Source: Bacillota bacterium (lineage in GTDB: Bacteria > Bacillota > Clostridia > Monoglobales > Firm-18). From it: a DNA stretch of 64,000 nt. Below the pieces are notes generated by a model. That model was not told the origin of the DNA and did not search any database. It saw only the letters and a list, made by a program, of their open reading frames with translations. The translations under genes and the position numbers were made by a program. The stretch spans positions 140,534 to 204,533 of the forward strand of contig JAKJBX010000001.1 in NCBI GenBank assembly GCA_022706765.1, written 5' to 3'. Below, in pieces: positions 1,017 through 64,000 of this stretch. Within the stretch, counting starts at the first letter, position 1, and the number at the start of each line of letters is the position of its first letter.

Positions 1017-2291
1017 ATGGAATTTGAAAAAATACACAGTGAACTGTTGCAGGAAACCTTGTATAAAGGAAAGCATAAAAGCGGTCTGTCGGTCTATGTT
1101 CTGCCCAAGCAGGGGCACAGCAAAAGCTATGCCAGCTTTGCGGCGCGGGTCGGCTCGATTGACAACGCGTTTGTTGCCGCGGGTGAGACGGGTGTGACGG
1201 AAATCCCCGACGGTGTCGCCCACTTTTTGGAGCACAAGCTGTTTGAGCAGCCCGACGGCACCAACGCCTTTGACCAATACAACACCACCGGCGCATCGGC
1301 GAACGCCTTTACGAGCTTTAATACCACCGCCTACCTGTTTTCGTCCACCGACAATTTTTACGGCAATTTGGAAATCCTTTTGGATTTTGTCGGCAAGCCG
1401 CACTTTACCGATGAAAACGTCGCCAAGGAGCAGGGCATCATCGGTCAGGAGATCCGGATGTACGAGGACGACCCCAACTGGCGGGTATTTTTCAACCTGC
1501 TGGGCGCGCTGTACCAAAACCACCCCGTCCGCAACGACATCGCCGGCACGGTCGAGAGCATTTCACGCATCGACAGGGACGTCCTGTATAAATGCTACCA
1601 CAGCTTCTACAACCCGTCCAACATGGCGCTGTTTACCTGCGGCGATGTGGACTGCGGGCGTGTGGCGGAGCTTGTGGACAAATATGTCACGGCAAGTCCC
1701 ATCGGCAGCATCGGCAGGTTCTATCCGGTAGAGCCGCCGCAGGTGCGTCAAAGCGAGGTCATCCAAAAGCTCAGCGTGGCAAGCCCGATTTTCCTGCTCG
1801 GCTTTAAGGACAACGATTTGAATGTCGAGGGCAGCCTGCTGCTGAGGAAGCAGATCGTGACCGAGATCCTGCTGGAAATGCTGGCGGGCAAGAGCAGCGC
1901 CACCTATAACAGCCTGTACGAACAGGGGCTGATCAACCAGACCTTCGACATCGACTTCACCGCCGAGGGCAATTACGCCTTCTCGACGCTCGGGGGCGAA
2001 AGCTGCGACCCGCTTGCGGCGAGGGATGCGCTGCTGGAAAAAATCGGCAAAGCGACCCTGACGCAGGAGGCGTTCGACCAGTGCAAAAAGGTCGTTATCG
2101 GCAGGCACCTGCGCCTGTTCAACAGCGTCGAAAAGCTGTCCAACAGCTTTGTGTCCGCCATCTTCCGGGGTACCGATTTGTTTGAATATTTGGGCGTCTG
2201 CGACAGCATTGCGCTCGAAGAGGTGCAAAGCCGCAAGGACAAACACTTTACACCCCAAAACAGCGCCGTGTCTATCATAGAGCCGTTCTAA
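1017..2291 (+). CDS. M16 family zinc metallopeptidase
   Basis: The ORF carries the inverted zinc motif HxxEH (GVAHFLEHKLFE). The AGGGGG SD at 1001-1006 favours ATG 1017 over ATG 1008. Confidence 0.85.
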   Translation: MEFEKIHSELLQETLYKGKHKSGLSVYVLPKQGHSKSYASFAARVGSIDNAFVAAGETGVTEIPDGVAHFLEHKLFEQPDGTNAFDQYNTTGASANAFTSFNTTAYLFSSTDNFYGNLEILLDFVGKPHFTDENVAKEQGIIGQEIRMYEDDPNWRVFFNLLGALYQNHPVRNDIAGTVESISRIDRDVLYKCYHSFYNPSNMALFTCGDVDCGRVAELVDKYVTASPIGSIGRFYPVEPPQVRQSEVIQKLSVASPIFLLGFKDNDLNVEGSLLLRKQIVTEILLEMLAGKSSATYNSLYEQGLINQTFDIDFTAEGNYAFSTLGGESCDPLAARDALLEKIGKATLTQEAFDQCKKVVIGRHLRLFNSVEKLSNSFVSAIFRGTDLFEYLGVCDSIALEEVQSRKDKHFTPQNSAVSIIEPF

Positions 2292-2296
2292 CGCAA

Positions 2297-2322
2297 ACAG
2301 CACCCGAAAGGGTGCTGTTTTG
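2297..2322 (+). terminator. Rho-independent terminator after the M16 pair
   Basis: The stem is acagcaccc / gggtgctgt with a GAAA loop, followed by a T-run. Confidence 0.6.
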
Positions 2323-2379
2323 CAAATCGTGTGTCATTCGCCTTTTAAAATAAGGGTGTTGTTTTACAAAGTCGTTTTG

Positions 2380-2661
2380 TCATTCGTCTTTCAAAACAAA
2401 GGTGTCAAGGATACAGCTTGCGCCGAAGCGAAAGCCGCGTGTAAAGGTTTCACGCTCGGTCTGCCGGGCATACGCCACGTACGCATCGACGTATGCTTCG
2501 AGCAGCGCCTGCTGCTCGCCGCTCAGCGCGGCGGTCAGAGTCTTTTTTGCACCGATGACCTCATCCAGCATGGGATCCAGCGCCTCGCTGCGCGTTTCAA
2601 AACGGTCGAGGGCATGGACGTTGCTTTCAAACAGCCTTTCGATAAAGCTGAAACTTTCCAT
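2380..2661 (-). CDS. hypothetical small helical protein (93 aa)
   Basis: The ORF is 2380..2697. ATG 2661 is preceded by GAGGTGG with about 5 nt spacing. I do not recognise the family. Confidence 0.5.
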   Translation of the reverse strand: MESFSFIERLFESNVHALDRFETRSEALDPMLDEVIGAKKTLTAALSGEQQALLEAYVDAYVAYARQTERETFTRGFRFGASCILDTFVLKDE

Positions 2662-2988: not shown

Positions 2989-3070
2989 ATTTTTCCATGC
3001 TTCCGTTGATATTATTTTATCATATCGAGGAAAATTATGCAACAGTTTTTTTAAAATGCGGATGTTCAAG

Positions 3071-3112
3071 AAAAAGCCCGGCAATATTCAATGATATTGC
3101 CGGGCTTTTTTT
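3071..3112. terminator. bidirectional Rho-independent terminator (3' of the heparinase-like gene)
   Basis: A 13-bp stem agcccggcaatat / atattgccgggct is flanked by A5 on the left and T7 on the right. Confidence 0.7.
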
Positions 3113-3163
3113 GGATTTCCTCAATTAAACTATTGTGCCATTATGCGCTTTTGAGCGGCAAGG

Positions 3164-22042: not shown

Positions 22043-22465
22043 ATGGAAGTTGAAATCGGCAAAATCATTGAGGGAAAGGTGACAGGCATTACGAATTTCG
22101 GCGCATTTGTTCAGCTCAGCGTCGGCAAGACCGGTCTGGTACACATTTCCGAAGTAGCGCTTGCATATGTCAAGGATATCAACGAACACCTTAAAGTGAA
22201 CGATGTGGTAAAAGTCAAGGTCATTTCGATTGACGACAAGGGGAAGGTCAGTCTTTCGATCAAAAAAGCGCTGGAAGACGAGCAAAGGAAAGCTGCCCGC
22301 AAGCCTGCGAACGTCGAGTTCGGACAAAAGGGTGCGCCTACGGAGCTTTCGTTTGAAGATAAGATGAAGCAGTTTATGCAAAATAGCGACGAGAAGATGA
22401 CCGACCTGCGCAGAAACATGGACTCCAAGCGCAGCGGCGGCGGATACAGACGCTCCGCGCATTAG
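22043..22465 (+). CDS. S1 RNA-binding domain protein (YabR-like)
   Basis: The S1 domain reads GKIIEGKVTGITNFGAFVQL...GLVHISEV. AAGGAGG lies upstream. Confidence 0.85.
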   Translation: MEVEIGKIIEGKVTGITNFGAFVQLSVGKTGLVHISEVALAYVKDINEHLKVNDVVKVKVISIDDKGKVSLSIKKALEDEQRKAARKPANVEFGQKGAPTELSFEDKMKQFMQNSDEKMTDLRRNMDSKRSGGGYRRSAH

Positions 22466-22474
22466 TATCGGAAC

Positions 22475-22541
22475 AAAGCGTCCGGGTCGCAGCGGTTTTT
22501 TGAATACATCCGCTCGCAGCCCTTACGCGGGGCTTGCGTGG
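22475..22541 (+). repeat. partial, diverged copy of the 42198/58607 intergenic repeat family
   Basis: aagcgtccgggtcgcagcggttttttgaatacatccgctcgc aligns with aagcgttctggcgcatagcgctttcccgaacgcatccgctcgc (42198-). The alignment includes an exact catccgctcgc. Confidence 0.4.
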
Positions 22542-22560
22542 TTTTCTATCAACAACAAAA

Positions 22561-22596
22561 AGCTGTGTTCTGCCAATGCAGAATACAGCTTTTTTT
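22561..22596 (+). terminator. Rho-independent terminator of yabR-like gene
   Basis: A 13-bp stem agctgtgttctgc / gcagaatacagct with a caat loop, followed by T6. Confidence 0.75.
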
Positions 22597-22812
22597 GACT
22601 TATAGGAAATCCTTTCCTATAAGTCAAAAACATTTAATTGATTCCTTGGCAAAGGGTCATGTCAGCGTACCAAAAAGTGCCGTAAGGCACTTTTTGACTT
22701 ATAGGAAATAGGGATTTCCTATAAGTCAAAAACATTTAATTGATTCCTTGGCAAAGGGTCATGTCAGCGTACCAAAAAGTGCCGCAAGGCACTTTTTGAC
22801 TTATAGGCAATT
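22592..22812. repeat. tandem repeat, 2.2 copies of a 99-102 bp unit made of two hairpins and a conserved spacer
   Basis: Units start at 22597, 22696 and 22798 (gacttatagg...). Each has a long palindrome (tttttgacttataggaaat...atttcctataagtcaaaaa), the spacer catttaattgattccttggcaaagggtcatgtcagcgtacc, and the hairpin aaaaagtgcc-G(T/C)AA-ggcacttttt. Confidence 0.9.
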
Positions 22813-22883
22813 ACGCAAAACCGGCGCAATTTCTGCGCTCCGGCGAAGTAAATTCCGCCTGTGCTTTCGCCTGCTGTGTCCGC

Positions 22884-23429
22884 TTATTGCTCCATCTGCT
22901 TGCCGAGGAAGCCGGACGCCGCCTGTGCGAGCTTTTCCTCGACCTCGCCCATGGTCTCACCGTTCTCACCCGACACGAAAATGACCGAACCGATAGAGTC
23001 GCCTTCCGAAATGATCGGGCTGACGATGCTTGCGATATATTTGTCGATGCCGTCGATGATCGGGATGCGCTTGCTGTCACCGGGTTTTAACGAAAAGGTT
23101 GTCTTTTCGTCCATCACCTTTTCAAGCTCAATCGAGATCTTCTTTTCCACAAGGTCCTTTTTCGATACGCCCGACACTGCAATGATGTTGTCCTTGTCCG
23201 TTATGGCGATGGGATACCCCGAGGTTTTCGACAGCGTTTCCGCATATTGCAGCGCAAAGTTGCCCAGCTCTCCGATCGGCGAATACTTCTTAAAAATGAC
23301 CTCTCCGTCCCTGTCGGTATATATTTCGAGCGGATCGCCCTCCCTGATCCGCATGGTACGGCGTATTTCTTTCGGAATGACCACACGACCCAAATCATCT
23401 ATTCTTCGTACTATACCAGTAGCCTTCAC
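22884..23429 (-). CDS. spoVT: stage V sporulation protein T (AbrB-type N-domain plus GAF-like domain)
   Basis: MKATGIVRRIDDLGRVVIPKEIRRTMRIREGDPLEIY is the SpoVT/AbrB swapped-hairpin domain. Its 181-aa length fits SpoVT. It uses a GTG start with GGAGG 9 nt upstream. Confidence 0.9.
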   Translation of the reverse strand: MKATGIVRRIDDLGRVVIPKEIRRTMRIREGDPLEIYTDRDGEVIFKKYSPIGELGNFALQYAETLSKTSGYPIAITDKDNIIAVSGVSKKDLVEKKISIELEKVMDEKTTFSLKPGDSKRIPIIDGIDKYIASIVSPIISEGDSIGSVIFVSGENGETMGEVEEKLAQAASGFLGKQMEQ

Positions 23430-27917: not shown

Positions 27918-27952
27918 AAAAAGGGCAGGGGCTTCTCTCGAAGCCTCCACCC
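27918..27952 (-). terminator. intrinsic terminator inside the oadG/oadB leader (possible attenuator or riboswitch expression platform)
   Basis: On the minus strand, gggtggaggcttc-gaga-gaagcccctgccc is followed by TTTTT. This lies about 50 nt upstream of the small-ORF start and about 80 nt downstream of the promoter. Confidence 0.5.
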
Positions 27953-28035
27953 TTAAAGCTACAAATCTTGAAAGCAGATACCAGACTATAACATGAACAT
28001 CTGCCCAACCGAAAATAAGGTATTTAATTATTTTA

Positions 28036-28064: not shown

Positions 28065-28293
28065 TGTTATTGGCGCAGTTAGAAGTATAATCTTTCATTT
28101 TACCATTATATGCGTAATCGGCAATTCAAAACCACTCGATAAATTCCTGTTTATCTGCTATCATATACAAATGCTTATCAACTTCGCTTTTACTGTATGA
28201 AATAAAGAAATCAATCACTTTTACAAGCAATTGACTTCTTTCGACAAACATTTTGCCTTTGTTGCTCAAAAAAGATGCAGGTTGTTTTCGGGC

Positions 28294-28346
28294 ATAAAAA
28301 TTCGCCCATAGCAATTACTATGAGCGAAATAAACGGACAATGTCCG
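28294..28346 (-). terminator. hairpin pair and terminator immediately 3' of tRNA-Val (conserved with the tRNA-Leu flank)
   Basis: On the minus strand, the hairpin cggacattgtccg is followed by the stem ttcgctcatag/ctatgggcgaa (one mismatch) and TTTTTA. It differs from 36337-36399 at 5 of 63 positions. Confidence 0.65.
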
Positions 28347-28423
28347 TGGTAGAGACAGCGGGATTCGAACCTGCGACCTCTCGCATGTGAAGCGAGCACT
28401 CTAACCAGCTGAGCTATGCCTCC
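28347..28423 (-). tRNA. tRNA-Val (anticodon CAC)
   Basis: The reverse complement is GGAGGCATAGCTCAGCTGGTTAGAGTGCTCGCTTCACATGCGAGAGGTCGCAGGTTCGAATCCCGCTGTCTCTACCA. It folds as a cloverleaf with anticodon loop TTCACAT and an encoded CCA. It has one A-C mismatch in the T stem and G-U pairs in the acceptor stem. Confidence 0.8.
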
Positions 28424-28488: not shown

Positions 28489-28605
28489 TTTTTATCTGAT
28501 AGGAAATTTTTTAAATTTCCTATCAGATAAAAACATTTAATTCATACCTTGATAAAGGGGTTCGTTTGGCATCAAAAGCGACGAAAGCGCTTTGTTCCCC
28601 CGCCA
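28489..28605 (-). repeat. diverged copy of the 22592-22812 repeat unit
   Basis: The palindrome ttttatctgataggaaattt / aaatttcctatcagataaaa is followed by aaaaacatttaattcataccttgataaagggg. Compare aaaaacatttaattgattccttggcaaaggg at 22626. Confidence 0.6.
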
Positions 28606-33783: not shown

Positions 33784-34416
33784 TTAATAACCCAAATTTT
33801 CCCCGACCATAATCACCTTGATTCTGTCTTTTTGCCGCTGATAGGAAGTCAAAACATAGTTGCAGCATATGCGCTCAATGCTTTTACAGCCGTTGCCCGA
33901 ACGCTCATCAGAGCATGCGCCTTCGGTATAACAGTAGGTGCCTGTGATCAGGCGCATATTGTTTTTAGGTGCAGCAATGGTTTTGACCCTGTGAATCGCC
34001 TCTTCAAAATCCCTGACAATTTTGTTCCAGCCTACAATAACGATCACCGACTTGGGACCATAGCACAAGGCGGCGACACGATTAGAGTTCCCATCGACGT
34101 TGAACAGCATACCGTCCTCCGTAATGGCGTTGGAGCTGGACAGGTAGACATCCGCCCGAAACGACTCCAAAAAGATGTGCTGGATTTGCTTGGGGTTAAG
34201 GTCCGGCGCATATCTATCGAGAAAATTGTATTTTCCGCATCTTAAATGGTCGATAACGCCGCACTCAAACAGCGACACCGAGCCGCCGACTGCAACGGTG
34301 CTCCCCTCGGCTATCAAGGTGTCGATTAAGGGGACGACATCATTTTTGCTGTCGACATAATAGCCGCACATATTGTTTTTCGCTAGGTTTGCAATGACTT
34401 TTTCAATGCGGTTCAT
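33784..34416 (-). CDS. LUD-domain protein (LutC/YkgG-like lactate-utilization family)
   Basis: STVAVGGSVSL...YLSSSNAITEDGMLFNVDGNSNRVAAL..GP..VIVIVGWNKIV is typical of the LUD domain, and there is a Cys-rich C-terminus. GAGGGG lies 6 nt before ATG 34416. Confidence 0.7.
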   Translation of the reverse strand: MNRIEKVIANLAKNNMCGYYVDSKNDVVPLIDTLIAEGSTVAVGGSVSLFECGVIDHLRCGKYNFLDRYAPDLNPKQIQHIFLESFRADVYLSSSNAITEDGMLFNVDGNSNRVAALCYGPKSVIVIVGWNKIVRDFEEAIHRVKTIAAPKNNMRLITGTYCYTEGACSDERSGNGCKSIERICCNYVLTSYQRQKDRIKVIMVGENLGY

Positions 34417-36290: not shown

Positions 36291-36346
36291 TTTGGGATAT
36301 TTTAAATGGTATGTTATACAAACAAGGATGCAAGCGGGTTTCGGGC

Positions 36347-36399
36347 ATAAAAATTCGCTCACAGCAATTGCTGTGAGCGAATTAAACGGACAATGTCCG
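36347..36399 (-). terminator. hairpin pair and terminator immediately 3' of tRNA-Leu (conserved with the tRNA-Val flank)
   Basis: On the minus strand, cggacattgtccg is followed by the 13-bp stem attcgctcacagc/gctgtgagcgaat and then TTTTTA. Confidence 0.75.
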
Positions 36400-36487
36400 T
36401 GGTGCTGGTGACCGGAATCGAACCGGTACGGGGTATTAGCCCGCAGGATTTTAAGTCCTGTGCGTCTGCCAGTTCCGCCACACCAGC
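36400..36487 (-). tRNA. tRNA-Leu (anticodon TAA)
   Basis: The reverse complement is an 88-nt class II tRNA (GCTGGTGTGGCGGAACTGGCAGACGCACAGGACTTAAAATCCTGCGGGCTAATACCCCGTACCGGTTCGATTCCGGTCACCAGCACCA). The anticodon loop is CTTAAAA, there is a long variable arm, and CCA is encoded. Confidence 0.9.
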
Positions 36488-41609: not shown

Positions 41610-42197
41610 ATGAAAAGGATCATATTAGCGTCCGCCTCGCCCAGGCGCAGGGAGCTTTTGACTCAACTGGGGCTTCAATTTGATGTGGCGGTGTCGGATG
41701 CGGACGAAGCTTTTGACAAGCATCTATCGGCGGAGCAAAACGTGATGCGCATTGCCTCCGGCAAGGCAAAAGCGGTGGCGTCACAAATAGACGGCGACTG
41801 TCTCATCATCGGCGCCGATACGGTGGTCTGCTGCGGCGAAACGGTGCTGACCAAGCCGCCTGACGAGCAGTCAGCCTTTGGGATGCTGCGGATGCTCAGC
41901 GGCAGGACGCATACCGTTTATACGGGCTTTGCGGTGCTGAGGACAAGCGACTTTCAGCTGGAAACCGGCTGTGAACAGACGCAGGTCACCTTTCGTGATT
42001 TAACGGACGAGGACATCGCAGGCTATATCAAAACGGGAGAGCCGATGGATAAGGCGGGCGGCTACGGCGTTCAGGGCATCGGCGCGGTGCTGGTGCGCGC
42101 TATCTGCGGCGATTACAGCAATGTGGTCGGGCTTCCTCTCGGCAGCCTTGCGCAGACGCTCGGCAAATTCGGGATAAAAATCTTATCATCAAAATGA
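41610..42197 (+). CDS. maf: Maf-like nucleoside triphosphate pyrophosphatase
   Basis: Contains IILASASPRRRELL, GADTVV and GAYGIQG-like GGYGVQG. GTG 41601 is an alternative start. Confidence 0.9.
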   Translation: MKRIILASASPRRRELLTQLGLQFDVAVSDADEAFDKHLSAEQNVMRIASGKAKAVASQIDGDCLIIGADTVVCCGETVLTKPPDEQSAFGMLRMLSGRTHTVYTGFAVLRTSDFQLETGCEQTQVTFRDLTDEDIAGYIKTGEPMDKAGGYGVQGIGAVLVRAICGDYSNVVGLPLGSLAQTLGKFGIKILSSK

Positions 42198-42310
42198 AGC
42201 GTTCTGGCGCATAGCGCTTTCCCGAACGCATCCGCTCGCCGCGCGAGCGTGAGCGCAGGTAAATTCATTTTACCGCAGTGCAGAAATTGCGCCGGTTTTG
42301 CGCAATTTCC
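42198..42310 (+). repeat. structured intergenic repeat, copy A (between maf and mreB)
   Basis: About 75% identical, without gaps, to 58607-58721 over the first 92 nt. Hairpins are gcgttc../..gaacgc, ggtaaa-ttca-tttacc and gaaattgcgc-cggtttt-gcgcaatttc (42283-42309). Confidence 0.7.
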
Positions 42311-42334
42311 AATAAATAAAAAGGAGACAGATAA

Positions 42335-47993: not shown

Positions 47994-48019
47994 GATGCGG
48001 GCTGTATTAAGGATTGCAG

Positions 48020-48112
48020 CATTTTTTAGGTGCACAGCCGAAAGACATTGCCAGGGAAACAATTAAATGCTTTTGTGTTGCGGGAAATTTAGCAATTTCC
48101 CACAACACAAAA
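48020..48112 (+). repeat. copy of the hairpin plus CATTTAATT repeat family (inverted relative to 22592-22812)
   Basis: The hairpin ttgtgttgcgggaaat-ttagca-atttcccacaacacaa has 16 bp with one mismatch. The reverse complement reads ..acaaaagcatttaattgtttccctggcaa.., matching aaaaacatttaattgattccttggcaa. Confidence 0.55.
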
Positions 48113-48126
48113 TATAAACAGCCGTC

Positions 48127-49040: not shown

Positions 49041-49109
49041 TCTAAGAAAAAATCAGCGCAGACGGATTCACTTCGCCGGAGCGCAATTAAATTCAAAGGA
49101 CTGGTATAT

Positions 49110-58579: not shown

Positions 58580-58606
58580 GGTTAATAATTTTTTGAACAT
58601 TTGAAA

Positions 58607-58721
58607 AAGTGTTTCGGCGCGTAGCGCTTTCCGAAACGCATCTTATCGCCCCGCGAGGGTAAGCGCAGGCGAATTTATTTCGCCGAAGCGTGGAAATTAC
58701 AACATAAATGTTGTAATTTCC
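58607..58721 (+). repeat. structured intergenic repeat, copy B (between thioesterase gene and rplS promoter)
   Basis: It is homologous to 42198-42310. Hairpins are gtgtttc../..gaaacgc, ggcgaa-tttat-ttcgcc and ggaaattacaaca-taaa-tgttgtaatttcc (58692-58721). Confidence 0.7.
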
Positions 58722-58848
58722 TAAATTAAATAAAAAACACTTGCAAGTTGACAGAATATATGTTAAAATATGCTTTGTGTTTAATAACGGGCAATCCGCT
58801 GCATCCATCGTCGGTGTATGACTGTCTTAGAAGAAAGGGAGAACATTC

Positions 58849-62752: not shown

Positions 62753-62835
62753 AATTAATTATTGCATTTTCTTGTCTTTTGGTATATGATATAATCTATA
62801 TATCATATACAATTTTTGAAGGGATGGACCTTAAA

Positions 62836-64000
62836 ATGAAATTATCTCAGAAATCTTTGTCAATCAGCCCCTCACCGACGCTGTCGATTGACGCAAAATA
62901 CAAGGAAATGCTTACAAACGGTGAGGATGTCGTCGGCTTCGGCGCAGGCGAACCGGATTGCGATACCCCCGACCACATCAAGGCGGCTGCCATCGAGGCG
63001 ATCAACAAAGGCTTCACGAAATATACGCCCGCTTCGGGTACGCTTGAGCTCAAAAAAGCGATATGCAAAAAGCTGCAAGACGACAACGGTCTTACATATA
63101 AGCCAAGCGACATCGTCGTGTCAAACGGTGCGAAGCATTCGCTGGTCAACGTGTTCTGCGCCATCCTCAATCCGGGCGACGAGGTCATTATCCCCTCGCC
63201 GTTTTGGGTGAGCTATCCCGAGATGGTCAAGCTTGCCGACGGCGTCCCCGTGACGCTTGAAACTACCGAATCGACGGGCTTCAAGTTCACTGCGGCACAG
63301 CTGAAAGCCGCCATTACGCCGAAAACCAAAGCGATTGTGCTCAACAGCCCCAGCAACCCTACGGGTATGCTGTATTCTAAGCAAGAGCTTGCCGGGATCG
63401 CAAGTATTGCGGTTGCAAACGGCATCTTCGTGGTGTCAGATGAGATCTATGAAAAGCTAATTTACGGCGGCGAACAGCACGTGAGCATCGCATCGCTCGG
63501 CGACGACATCAAGGCGCTGACGATCGTTGTCAACGGCGTGTCAAAGAGCTATTCCATGACCGGCTGGCGCATCGGCTACACCGCCAGCACGGGTGAGATC
63601 GCGGCGATTATGGGCAACGTCCAAAGCCACGCCGCATCAAATCCCTGTTCGATTTCGCAGGCGGCTGCGGTCGCCGCTTTGCTGGGACCGCAGGACAGCG
63701 TCAAAATTATGCGGGAGGCGTTCTTAAAGCGCCGTGACTATATGGTGAAGCGCATCAACAGCATCCCCGGGCTCTCCTGCCTGACCCCCCAAGGGGCGTT
63801 TTATGTGATGATGAACATCAAGGGCGTGCTTGGCAGGGAGATCAAGGGCAAGGTGATCAACAGCTGCGACGAATTCTGTGCGCATGCGCTGGAAGCCGCC
63901 GGGGTCGCGCTCGTACCGGGCAGCGGCTTTGGCGCGAACGGCTATGTGCGCTGGTCCTATGCGACGAGCATGGAAAACATCAAAAACGGTCTTGACCGCA
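62836..64000 (+). CDS. class I/II PLP-dependent (aspartate-type) aminotransferase, 3' end cut by window edge
   Basis: It is absent from the ORF track because no stop occurs before nt 64000. Translation from ATG 62836 gives MKLSQKSLSISPSPTLSIDAKYKEM...GEPDCDTP...NGVSKSYSMTGWRIGY, which includes the PLP-Lys motif SKSYSMTGWR. Confidence 0.85.
   Translation, partial: MKLSQKSLSISPSPTLSIDAKYKEMLTNGEDVVGFGAGEPDCDTPDHIKAAAIEAINKGFTKYTPASGTLELKKAICKKLQDDNGLTYKPSDIVVSNGAKHSLVNVFCAILNPGDEVIIPSPFWVSYPEMVKLADGVPVTLETTESTGFKFTAAQLKAAITPKTKAIVLNSPSNPTGMLYSKQELAGIASIAVANGIFVVSDEIYEKLIYGGEQHVSIASLGDDIKALTIVVNGVSKSYSMTGWRIGYTASTGEIAAIMGNVQSHAASNPCSISQAAAVAALLGPQDSVKIMREAFLKRRDYMVKRINSIPGLSCLTPQGAFYVMMNIKGVLGREIKGKVINSCDEFCAHALEAAGVALVPGSGFGANGYVRWSYATSMENIKNGLDR

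What the first reader, a model, noticed from the sequence alone, without database searches (positions are those of the whole stretch)
22592..22812. Tandem 99/102-bp repeat built from a 19-bp palindrome, a conserved spacer and a GNRA-capped hairpin
There are 2.2 tandem units, starting at 22597, 22696 and 22798. Each unit contains three parts:
- The palindrome TTTTTGACTTATAGGAAAT...ATTTCCTATAAGTCAAAAA.
- The spacer CATTTAATTGATTCCTTGGCAAAGGGTCATGTCAGCGTACC.
- The hairpin AAAAAGTGCC-GNAA-GGCACTTTTT.

The two copies of the small hairpin differ only in the loop (GTAA versus GCAA), and both are GNRA tetraloops. The large palindrome keeps its pairing while its apex differs (atcct versus aggg). The array fills the convergent gap between yabR and spoVT.

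It is not CRISPR-like: the period is about 100 bp, there are no unique spacers and no cas genes.
Basis: seen in the sequence. Interest (0 to 1): 0.6.

Follow-up and report, generated by a model that had tools for sequence, protein, structure and literature searches.

The report
Terminator-seeking mosaic repeats in Clostridia
The tandem repeat is real, but it is a pile-up of three copies of a small, probably mobile, non-coding repeat family that lodges at T-runs behind transcription terminators in several Clostridia genomes and that matched no Rfam family and no paper in the library searched.

Summary
Two 99/102-bp units (96/102 identical) run from 22592 to 22797, each made of a palindrome, an identical 41-nt spacer and a GNRA-capped A5-stem-T5 hairpin. 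The array starts exactly at the T7 tract of the yabR terminator.

It is not a one-off array. The "0.2 copy" is the head of a different, truncated repeat (type B, 22798-22883). The window holds at least five more members: W-type at 28489-28597 and 48008-48113; type B at 42188-42328, 58598-58739 and a fragment near 49050-49090.

The shared head, T5|GACTTATAGGAAAT, occurs in many Clostridia genomes directly after unrelated terminator hairpins. One MAG has 1-4-unit tandem arrays at 14 or more sites.

Relatives have empty sites: a 102-bp yabR-spoVT gap, and overlapping maf/mreB genes where the window carries a T5-flanked copy.

No Rfam family, phage or plasmid match, transposase or literature record was found.

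Best reading: a modular, non-autonomous mobile repeat that inserts at T-runs and carries its own terminator hairpin plus T5. That tail re-creates its target, which would explain head-to-tail arrays. The enzyme is unknown. The closest analogues are Neisseria NIMEs, REP/BIME elements and IS200/IS605-type MITEs.

Compensated stem changes leave a structured-RNA or protein-site role open.

The parts
22043..22465 (+). S1-domain yabR-like gene, the upstream flank
   Evidence: ORF. Pfam S1 for the identical product. Synteny S4-yabP-yabQ-divIC-yabR in relatives.
22555..22598 (+). yabR's own intrinsic terminator: a 17-bp stem followed by T7. The array starts at this T-tract.
   Evidence: Fold of -24.1 kcal/mol and a T-run of 7; sequence.
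22592..22695 (+). W-type unit 1. T5 plus palindrome 22592-22630, spacer 22631-22671, A5-GTGCC-GTAA-GGCAC-T5 hairpin 22672-22695.
   Evidence: Covariance model R1 scores 103.7 bits.
22691..22797 (+). W-type unit 2. Palindrome 22691-22732, spacer 22733-22773, hairpin 22774-22797 with a GCAA loop.
   Evidence: R1 scores 126.9 bits.
22798..22883 (+). Truncated type-B unit (B1). Head GACTTATAGGCAAT plus the first two hairpins of the type-B body. It abuts the spoVT stop codon.
   Evidence: BLAST to L045 gives 87% over 53 nt. Alignment A1 is 80% identical to the Firm_18 copies. Model R2 scores 40.8 bits, E 2e-11.
22884..23429 (-). spoVT, the convergent downstream flank
   Evidence: ORF. Homologs carry PF04014 and PF15714 (SpoVT_C).
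28489..28597 (+). Solitary W-type copy (W28k), between the LarA_N-like gene (-) and a tRNA (-). Palindrome arms are ATCTGATAGGAAAT / ATTTCCTATCAGAT.
   Evidence: 3 of 3 arm changes are compensated. R1 scores 98.5 bits. Repeat family D3 is 84% identical over 45 nt. Flanking genes.
48008..48113 (-). Solitary W-type copy (W48k), between the MGS-like gene (+) and dapF (+). Arms are GTGTTGTGGGAAAT / ATTTCCCGCAACAC. CATTTAATTG is conserved.
   Evidence: R1 scores 53.5 bits, E 2.6e-9. Sequence. Flanking genes.
42188..42328 (-). Full-length type-B copy (B2), inserted between maf (+) and mreB (+) and bracketed by T5 on both sides on its own strand. Its head has decayed to ATTTATTGGAAAT.
   Evidence: R2 scores 149.3 bits. 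The same site is empty in L094 and L095.
58598..58739 (-). Full-length type-B copy (B3), between the thioesterase gene (+) and rplS (+). The first hairpin is rebuilt with compensated changes.
   Evidence: R2 scores 152.7 bits. Flanking genes.
49050..49090 (-). Type-B fragment (B4): the second hairpin plus T6 only, between dapF (+) and an aminotransferase gene (+). This is a weak call.
   Evidence: BLAST 90% over 30 nt to L045. Sequence. Flanking genes.

Best explanation
The 'array' is a local pile-up of three members of a modular family of small non-coding interspersed repeats found in Clostridia. It holds two near-identical W-type units and the 5' part of a type-B unit.

Shown:
- Each unit begins directly after a T-run with the head GACTTATAGGAAAT, which is usually the 5' arm of a first hairpin.
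- A 40-110-nt body follows. It differs between types but always folds into hairpins.
- Each unit ends in a terminator-like hairpin followed by about T5.
- Copies are dispersed at unrelated sites within genomes and between genomes.
- In most intergenic cases, the site is the T-tract of a resident gene's intrinsic terminator.
- Syntenic relatives lack the copies.

Inferred:
- The units are non-autonomous mobile elements that insert at T-runs, preferentially the hairpin-plus-T-tract of terminators.
- Because each unit carries its own hairpin plus T5 at its 3' end, every insertion re-creates the preferred target. New units therefore stack head-to-tail and different types mix in one array.
- The mobilising enzyme is unknown. 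Asymmetric hairpin-bearing ends without terminal inverted repeats, and insertion next to a short oligonucleotide, point to a single-strand or hairpin-recognising system (HUH, IS200/IS605- or RAYT-like, or rolling-circle like) rather than a classical DDE MITE.
- At this locus the practical effect is two extra A5-stem-T5 bidirectional terminator hairpins between convergent yabR and spoVT. The first strong terminator a spoVT transcript meets is the W2 hairpin.
For: Anatomy and statistics.

Dispersal in the window: W28k and W48k; B2, B3 and B4.

Dispersal elsewhere:
- The 18-mer T5GACTTATAGGAAA hits 80 loci, which is the return cap. Many are Lachnospiraceae or other Clostridia.
- MAG S29M_St_26 has arrays of 1-4 units of 90-100 bp at 14 or more sites. 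Each array starts at a different terminator, and two body subtypes are mixed within arrays.
- Seven of those 14 loci end inside a unit and two have N-gaps inside arrays, the signature of a multi-copy repeat.

Target:
- 57% of motif sites have an upstream hairpin of -10 kcal/mol or stronger abutting the T-run, against 16% of control T-runs. The sites without hairpins are coding-sequence chance hits.
- 36 of 47 hairpin sites have a co-oriented ORF ending within 250 nt upstream.
- One site follows an FMN-riboswitch terminator. One follows a parS-like palindrome.

All body types end in a hairpin plus T-run.

Empty sites:
- The yabR-spoVT gap is 102 bp with no repeat in the syntenic relatives L096 and L097, against 418 bp here.
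- maf overlaps mreB in L094 and L095. In the window B2 is flanked by T5 on both sides, separates the two genes and gives Maf a new C-terminus.

Junction T-runs are 7, 5 and 5 nt, as expected if units carrying T5 were added after a resident T7.

Orientation: all 5 solitary copies between co-directional genes point their terminator against transcription. Only the array, which sits behind yabR's own terminator, is co-oriented. This fits selection against polar insertions.

No Rfam family matches.
Against: - No transposase or other partner gene was found. No family recurs in the 8-kb flanks. A rough tblastn probe for IS200-type TnpA found nothing in 766 kb, but it has low sensitivity.
- The relatives that supply empty sites are distant (81-85% protein identity, GC 38-40% versus 52%). 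Their intergenic sequences do not align, so exact insertion boundaries cannot be drawn. B2's 3' boundary is fuzzy.
- The 18-mer query included T5, so adjacency to a T-run is built into the search. Only the hairpin association is independent.
- Compensated changes in every hairpin, an invariant single-stranded CATTTAATTG and strand-specific GNRA loops are also what a functional RNA would show.
- The copy number in the source genome outside the window is unknown. The source contig could not be fetched.
Confidence: 0.6

Rival explanations
1. The units are functional structured RNAs: tandem sRNA genes or 3'-UTR elements. They would have been conserved for an RNA-level role, with the palindrome, the CCUU-GGCA-AAGG mini-hairpin and the GNRA hairpin as the RNA fold.
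For: - Compensated base changes: 3 of 3 arm changes in W28k, re-paired arms in W48k, and 5-6 compensated pairs in type B.
- The unpaired CATTTAATTG is invariant in 4 copies.
- GNRA and UUCG loops occur on the sense strand only.
- Folding z-scores of -10 to -13.
Against: - There is no conserved sigma-70 promoter. TTGACT-17-TATAAG exists only in W1; the spacing is 20 in W2 and 24-25 in Lachnospiraceae copies.
- All 5 solitary copies are antisense to their flanking genes, so they would not be read as 3' UTRs.
- One copy splits the maf/mreB overlap.
- Bodies differ completely between types.
- No Rfam match.
- Hairpin-dependent transposition would also preserve stems.
Confidence: 0.15
2. The palindrome and head are binding sites for a host DNA-binding protein, such as a dimeric regulator or a nucleoid or ParB/Noc-like protein. 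The arrays would be clusters of such sites.
For: - GGAAAT...ATTTCC is invariant in all W-type and C-type palindromes while the outer arms drift.
- The identical 18-mer is kept across distant Clostridia lineages.
- One head sits next to a parS-like site.
Against: - The distance between half-sites varies from 3 to about 20 nt, with complementary filler. This fits a hairpin rather than a duplex operator.
- Many copies have only one half-site.
- Positions are 3' of genes rather than at promoters.
- Nothing here tests binding.
Confidence: 0.1
3. The family is a REP/REPIN system in the strict sense, mobilised by a single-copy RAYT (domesticated Y1 HUH transposase). The palindromes would be REPIN doublets and the single heads decayed REP singlets.
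For: - Inverted head doublets separated by a short spacer, extragenic location at gene 3' ends, and singlets alongside doublets.
Against: - The head itself is not a palindrome.
- There is no GTAG-type 5' tetranucleotide.
- Units carry long non-REP bodies and terminators.
- No Y1 transposase was detected in the sampled DNA (weak test).
Confidence: 0.1
4. The array is a purely local tandem duplication of the yabR-spoVT terminator region, with no mobility and no family.
For: W1 and W2 are 96/102 identical and adjacent. Slippage or unequal crossing-over could have produced the second copy once the first was present.
Against: - Homologous units lie at four other window loci, and head-sharing units occur in other genomes.
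- The third unit is of a different type.
Confidence: 0.03

Closest known systems
Neisserial intergenic mosaic elements (NIME: dRS3 + RS elements)
   Same: A short conserved motif with inverted-repeat character punctuates many unrelated families of roughly 50-150-bp bodies. Units cluster into intergenic arrays of mixed composition, and array length varies between genomes. The definition comes from PMC1797815.
   Different: The motif sequence differs: ATTCCC-N8-GGGAAT in NIMEs versus T5-GACTTATAGGAAAT here. NIME units are not described as ending in terminator hairpins or as nesting at terminator T-tracts. The host phylum also differs. No dRS3-type recombinase link could be tested here.
REP / BIME / REPIN-RAYT systems of Proteobacteria
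   Same: Both are extragenic and often lie at gene 3' ends. Both form hairpins, occur as singlets and inverted doublets, form mosaic clusters and are non-autonomous (PMC3337134; BIME mosaics from my own knowledge).
   Different: The head is not itself palindromic. The units are about 100-140 nt and carry their own terminator. No RAYT was found. The family lies in Clostridia.
IS200/IS605-derived MITEs (PATEs) and their ssDNA 'peel-and-paste' transposition
   Same: Ends are asymmetric with hairpins and no terminal inverted repeats. Insertion occurs next to a short specific oligonucleotide without an obligatory duplication. Folded single strands are recognised (PMC6006769 abstract; the rest from my own knowledge).
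   Different: The left and right hairpins are not alike, as they are in IS608-type ends. The putative target, T5, is not a documented IS200/IS605 target to my knowledge. No tnpA or tnpB partner was found.
Bacterial group IIC introns
   Same: [quoted passage not shown] That covers the parS-palindrome case in L048.
   Different: The units are 55-140 nt, with no ribozyme domains and no RT ORF. No group II intron Rfam match was found.
Pneumococcal BOX elements; rolling-circle IS91/ISCR/Helitron-type elements
   Same: BOX elements have a modular build with a variable number of internal modules (PMC3049150 listed; details from my own knowledge). Rolling-circle elements have a constant origin end, a variable captured interior, a hairpin at the terminating end and occasional tandem arrays (my own knowledge).
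   Different: There is no sequence similarity. No Y2 HUH transposase was seen. The resemblance to rolling-circle elements is an inference from architecture only.

Membership tests
CRISPR array | Short direct repeats (about 23-50 bp) separated by unique spacers of similar length, usually with cas genes nearby | tested here: not met
   The period is 99/102 bp and the 'spacers' are identical in both units.
Any Rfam RNA family | Covariance-model score at or above the family's gathering threshold | tested here: not met
   No family covers the array or related loci at gathering score. In E-value mode only plant miRNA hairpin models appear, far below threshold: 42 bits against a threshold of 100.
REP/REPIN-RAYT | Short imperfect palindromic unit, extragenic, occurring as inverted doublets (REPINs) and singlets | tested here: inconclusive
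   Inverted head doublets occur in types W and C, and singlets in types A, B, D, E and F, all extragenic. However, the 14-nt head is not itself a palindrome, and units carry long extra bodies.
REP/REPIN-RAYT | Associated RAYT (Y1 HUH transposase) gene, typically flanked by REPs | tested here: inconclusive
The probe has low sensitivity and whole genomes were not searchable.
Classical MITE (DDE transposon derivative) | Terminal inverted repeats at both ends | tested here: not met
   In types A and B, the left end (GACTTATAGG...) and the right end (a GC hairpin plus T5) are unrelated. In type W the palindrome sits at one end only.
Classical MITE (DDE transposon derivative) | Direct target-site duplication of fixed length | tested here: inconclusive
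   T5 is present on both sides of B2 and of every array unit. The right-hand T5 could equally be the element's own terminator tail.
IS200/IS605-derived PATE | Subterminal hairpins at both ends, no TIR, insertion 3' of a fixed tetra- or pentanucleotide, no duplication | tested here: inconclusive
   The architecture is compatible. The two end hairpins are dissimilar, and no tnpA or tnpB was found.
Group IIC intron | Insertion just downstream of a terminator hairpin plus T's or another inverted repeat | tested here: met
   Hairpin association of 57% against 16% in controls. 36 of 47 hairpin sites follow a co-oriented ORF. A parS-palindrome case occurs in L048. The definition is from PMC1702495.
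Group IIC intron | Six-domain ribozyme (several hundred nt), usually with an RT ORF | tested here: not met
   Units are 55-140 nt. No intron family appears in Rfam searches.
Neisseria NIME | dRS3 repeat ATTCCCNNNNNNNNGGGAAT flanking RS bodies | tested here: not met
   The punctuating motif here is T5-GACTTATAGGAAAT. Only the architecture is shared.
Type III toxin-antitoxin RNA repeats (ToxI-like) | Tandem repeats of about 34-45 nt immediately upstream of a toxin gene on the same strand | tested here: not met
   The period is about 100 nt. The flanks are yabR and convergent spoVT, with no toxin ORF.
Tandem sRNA genes | Each unit has its own promoter and terminator | tested here: not met
   Terminator-like hairpins are present. 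The promoter scan finds nothing in the array. The TTGACT-N17-TATAAG spacing exists only in W1. Transcription itself was not testable.

The most novel reading that the evidence does not exclude
This would be a previously uncatalogued class of bacterial non-autonomous element.

- It homes to the hairpin-plus-T-tract of intrinsic terminators.
- It carries its own terminator as its 3' end. It therefore regenerates its own target and builds mixed head-to-tail arrays.
- It keeps only a constant 5' head, with the interior being swappable. This layout would fit an origin-end/terminator-end rolling-circle mechanism or another single-strand HUH mechanism, or an RT-based one, driven by a still unidentified enzyme shared across Clostridia lineages.
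Probability: 0.3. Interest if true: 0.65.

Novelty: new variant of a known kind. Interest (0 to 1): 0.45.

Why it matters
- If the model holds, these elements are a cheap, self-propagating source of extra intrinsic terminators in Clostridia genomes, and sometimes of new gene ends. The Maf C-terminus here is one example, and an insertion between an FMN riboswitch and its gene in L080 is another.
- They are a practical cause of assembly breaks in MAGs.
- They could be mistaken for sRNAs or regulatory motifs in comparative screens, because their stems covary.
- Finding the enzyme that recognises the T-run plus GACTTATAGGAAAT would add a terminator-targeting DNA element to a niche so far documented mainly for group IIC introns.

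Tried and rejected
- Rfam at gathering and E-value thresholds, on the window and on 18 related loci: nothing relevant.
- BLAST of the array against plasmid and phage collections: no match.
- Exact 22-mer from the spacer in metagenome contigs: none.
- Gapped palindrome pattern in metagenome contigs: one unrelated soil palindrome.
- The 18-mer in viral contigs: 7 hits, all AT-rich chance matches.
- Fetching the source contig through identical SpoVT (P0001): not on record.
- The nearest SpoVT relatives P0005 and P0006: no yabR-spoVT synteny.
- L093 (P0122) looked like a Y1-transposase insertion upstream of mreB. It is a GC-rich, unrelated organism whose duplicated MreB inflated the score, so it was discarded.
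- Literature search for the motif strings: only an unrelated PCR primer.
- Recurrent neighbouring proteins: only ABC transporters and response regulators.
- Coding reading: the periods of 99 and 102 are multiples of 3, but stop codons interrupt the frames, and units in other genomes are 90-100 nt.
- Sigma-70, SigH, sigma-54 and T7-like promoter readings of the head were considered by eye. All were rejected for lack of conserved spacing or second elements.
- Candidates at 33837, 62764-62838 and 3011-3116 were inspected and not accepted as members.
- The short contigs L001 and L084 end soon after the flanking genes but before any repeat, so they say nothing about the array.

Full report
OBSERVATION. 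The array is real. TRF reports 22592-22811 with period 102, 2.2 copies and score 385, the strongest tandem repeat in the window. Units start at 22597, 22696 and 22798. Each full unit has three parts. The first is a T5-arm-loop-arm-A5 palindrome (22592-22630 and 22691-22732; -20.3 and -22.2 kcal/mol). The second is an identical 41-nt spacer. The third is an A5-GTGCC-GNAA-GGCAC-T5 hairpin (-12.9 kcal/mol). W1 and W2 agree in 96 of 102 columns and differ only at the palindrome apex and one tetraloop base. The region folds far better than shuffles, with z = -12.7 and -10.2. The flanks are an S1-domain yabR-like gene (22043-22465, +) and spoVT (22884-23429, -). Three details need correcting. The array fills 220 of the 418 gap bases and is preceded by yabR's own strong terminator (22555-22598, -24.1 kcal/mol, T7). 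Copy 1 has an 18-bp stem, not 19. The GNRA loops exist only on the + strand.

IT IS NOT A KNOWN RNA AND NOT A PRIVATE ARRAY. No Rfam family reaches threshold on the window or on 18 related loci. The array has no phage or plasmid match. A scan of one genome per species with T5GACTTATAGGAAA returned 80 loci, which is the cap. The hits split into two groups. One group is chance matches inside conserved coding sequence (Pelagibacter, Elusimicrobia, a peptidase family). The other is intergenic hits in Lachnospiraceae and other Clostridia. In the intergenic group the motif sits directly after a hairpin plus T-run whose sequence differs at every site. 57% of all motif sites have an upstream hairpin of -10 kcal/mol or stronger, against 16% of control T-runs. 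36 of 47 hairpin sites have a co-oriented ORF ending within 250 nt upstream, and others follow tRNAs or a riboswitch. In L048 the 'hairpin' is a parS-like palindrome.

A MODULAR FAMILY. What follows the head differs between genomes, giving several body types. The plan is constant, however: head, hairpin-forming body, terminal hairpin plus T-run. The head, or its GGAAAT part, is commonly the 5' arm of the first hairpin. This is a full palindrome in types W and C, GGAAATTGCGC/GCGCAATTTCC in type B, and a 23-nt mini-hairpin in type E. MAG S29M_St_26 shows the same architecture as the window. It has arrays of 1-4 units of 90-100 bp at 14 or more sites. Each array begins at a different gene's terminator T-tract, and two body subtypes are mixed within arrays. 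Each array ends hairpin-T5-G. Seven of the 14 loci end inside a unit and two have scaffold gaps inside arrays.

MORE MEMBERS IN THE WINDOW. The window's third 'partial' unit (22798-22883) is the head plus the first two hairpins of a type-B element. It is homologous to copies in Clostridiales bacterium Firm_18. Model R2 scores it at 40.8 bits. Full-length type-B copies of about 140 nt lie at 42188-42328(-) and 58598-58739(-), and a fragment lies near 49050-49090(-). Two diverged W-type copies lie at 28489-28597(+) and 48008-48113(-). That makes eight members in 64 kb. In the diverged W copies the palindrome arms have changed on both sides together: GACTTATAGG/CCTATAAGTC becomes ATCTGATAGG/CCTATCAGAT and GTGTTGTGGG/CCCGCAACAC. 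Meanwhile T4-5, GGAAAT/ATTTCC, A4-5 and the unpaired CATTTAATTG stay fixed. Type B also shows 5-6 compensated pairs. The older type-B copies have lost GACTTATA but keep GGAAAT.

INSERTION EVIDENCE. Relatives with the same S4-yabP-yabQ-divIC-yabR/spoVT synteny (L096 and L097, YabR 81% identical) have a 102-bp gap with one terminator and no repeat. In relatives L094 and L095 (MreB 85% identical), maf overlaps the mreB ribosome-binding site and start. In the window, Maf homology stops at ...FGIK. A type-B copy bracketed by T5 on both sides, on its own strand, separates the two genes and supplies a new Maf C-terminus and stop. These relatives carry no family member in about 30 kb sampled. They are distant (GC 38-40% versus 52%), so exact boundaries cannot be drawn. 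In L080 a unit lies between an FMN riboswitch terminator and the regulated ORF.

ORIENTATION. The array is co-oriented with yabR, behind yabR's own terminator. All five solitary copies that lie between co-directional genes point their hairpin plus T-run against the flanking transcription. These are W28k, W48k, B2, B3 and B4. Five of five would occur by chance with p of about 0.03. This is what selection against polar insertions would leave if the unit's tail is a working one-way terminator. It is an inference. It also means the solitary copies are unlikely to be 3'-UTR RNAs.

MECHANISM. What is shown: a dispersed family with a constant head and swappable bodies; a terminal hairpin plus T5; positions at T-runs, mostly terminator T-tracts; empty sites in relatives; mixed arrays. 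What I infer: these are non-autonomous mobile elements that insert at T-runs. Because each one ends in hairpin plus T5, it regenerates its target, so units stack head-to-tail. The junction T-runs of 7, 5 and 5 nt at this locus fit units carrying T5 being added after a resident T7. The enzyme is unknown. No protein family recurs in the flanks, and a rough IS200-TnpA probe found nothing in 766 kb (low sensitivity). Asymmetric hairpin ends without terminal inverted repeats argue against a classical DDE MITE. They favour a system that recognises single strands or hairpins. The only well-documented elements with this target geometry are group IIC introns (PMC1702495), but these units have no ribozyme.

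LOCAL CONSEQUENCE. The two W hairpins are symmetric A5-stem-T5 structures and so are terminator-like on both strands. On the spoVT strand the first strong hairpin plus T-run after the stop codon is the W2 hairpin, 86 nt downstream.

COMPARISON WITH KNOWN SYSTEMS. Architecturally the closest is the Neisseria NIME. It has a short conserved inverted-repeat motif punctuating more than 100 families of 50-150-bp bodies in dynamic intergenic arrays (PMC1797815). REP/BIME/REPIN systems share the 3'-of-gene location, the hairpins, and singlets alongside inverted doublets (PMC3337134). IS200/IS605-type MITEs share the asymmetric hairpin ends (PMC6006769). The membership tests failed or were inconclusive for each family (see the table). 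I therefore file this as a new variant of the known kind 'small non-autonomous interspersed intergenic repeats'. It is not a member of any named family.

RIVALS. A structured-RNA role (0.15) is kept alive by the covariation, the conserved unpaired CATTTAATTG and the sense-strand GNRA/UUCG loops. Against it are the lack of a promoter, the antisense placement of solitary copies, the insertion into a gene overlap and the unrelated bodies. A host-protein-site role (0.1) fits the invariant GGAAAT/ATTTCC. It does not fit the variable half-site spacing, whose complementary filler indicates a hairpin. Strict REP-RAYT membership (0.1) is untested for lack of whole genomes. Pure local duplication (0.03) is contradicted by the dispersed copies, although slippage may well have produced W2 from W1.

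VERDICT. The finding is more ordinary than a unique structured array, because it is an interspersed repeat. It is also more interesting than a generic REP. It seeks terminators, carries a terminator, is modular and spans several Clostridia lineages. It matched no Rfam family and no paper in the library searched. Interest 0.45.

Noticed in passing
L080:777-974 (-): In a Lachnospiraceae MAG, a family unit with its own hairpin plus T6 sits between the terminator of an FMN riboswitch (Rfam 115 bits) and the start of the regulated ribD-like ORF, in the same orientation. This should block expression unless the unit's terminator is weak.
   Followed up: partly
L048, about 2266-2310 (-): A perfect parS-like palindrome, TGTTTCACGTGAAACA, is followed directly by TTTTTGACTTATAGGAAA. 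The element's upstream 'hairpin' here is a chromosome-partition site rather than a terminator.
   Followed up: no
window 28268-28371 and 36321-36424: A conserved two-hairpin terminator module trails two different tRNA genes. It reads ACGGACATTGTCCGT, then TTCGCTCAyAGyAATTGCTrTGrGCGAA-T5. The two copies are 81% identical with compensated stem changes. It has no head motif and is a separate small repeat.
   Followed up: partly
window 2311-2405: A 46-bp tandem repeat of 2.1 copies (TRF score 123) lies immediately after a terminator-like hairpin (GCACCCGAAAGGGTGC plus T's). It is unrelated in sequence to the family studied.
   Followed up: no
window 62775-62815: An AT-rich perfect palindrome, GGTATATGATATA-ATC-TATATATCATATAC, overlaps a promoter-like region just upstream of an ORF start. 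It looks like an operator.
   Followed up: no
window 27942-28010 (-): A Na+ riboswitch (DUF1646 motif, RF03071) scores 42.5 bits, just above its gathering score of 40.5. It lies about 480 nt from the W28k repeat copy.
   Followed up: no
L082:3548-3620: In Firmicutes bacterium ADurb.Bin193, the hairpin right after spoVT resembles the terminal hairpin module of type-B units (model R2, 22.9 bits, E 7e-5). Its sequence is AAGCGTTCGGAAAGGCACTACACATCCGAACGCTTT. It may be a remnant of a unit or the source of the module.
   Followed up: partly
window 3076-3135: A strong terminator, AAAAAGCCCGGCAATATT...AATATTGCCGGGCTTTTTTT, is followed by GGATTTCCTCAATTAAA. This echoes ATTTCC and CAATTAAA of the W-type units, and both models give only weak hits (10-14 bits). 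It may be a decayed member or chance.
   Followed up: partly
L093 (GCA_041485985.1 contig JBGPKP010000227.1): An unrelated GC-rich genome has a 492-aa MreB call containing a duplicated N-terminal segment, with a weak Y1_Tnp fragment upstream. It surfaced only because the duplication inflated the bit score.
   Followed up: partly
window 22466-22554: Between the yabR stop and its main terminator lie two further weak hairpin-plus-T-run structures, near 22480-22505 and 22523-22549. The gap therefore holds three terminator-like elements before the array even starts. Their origin is unclear.
   Followed up: no
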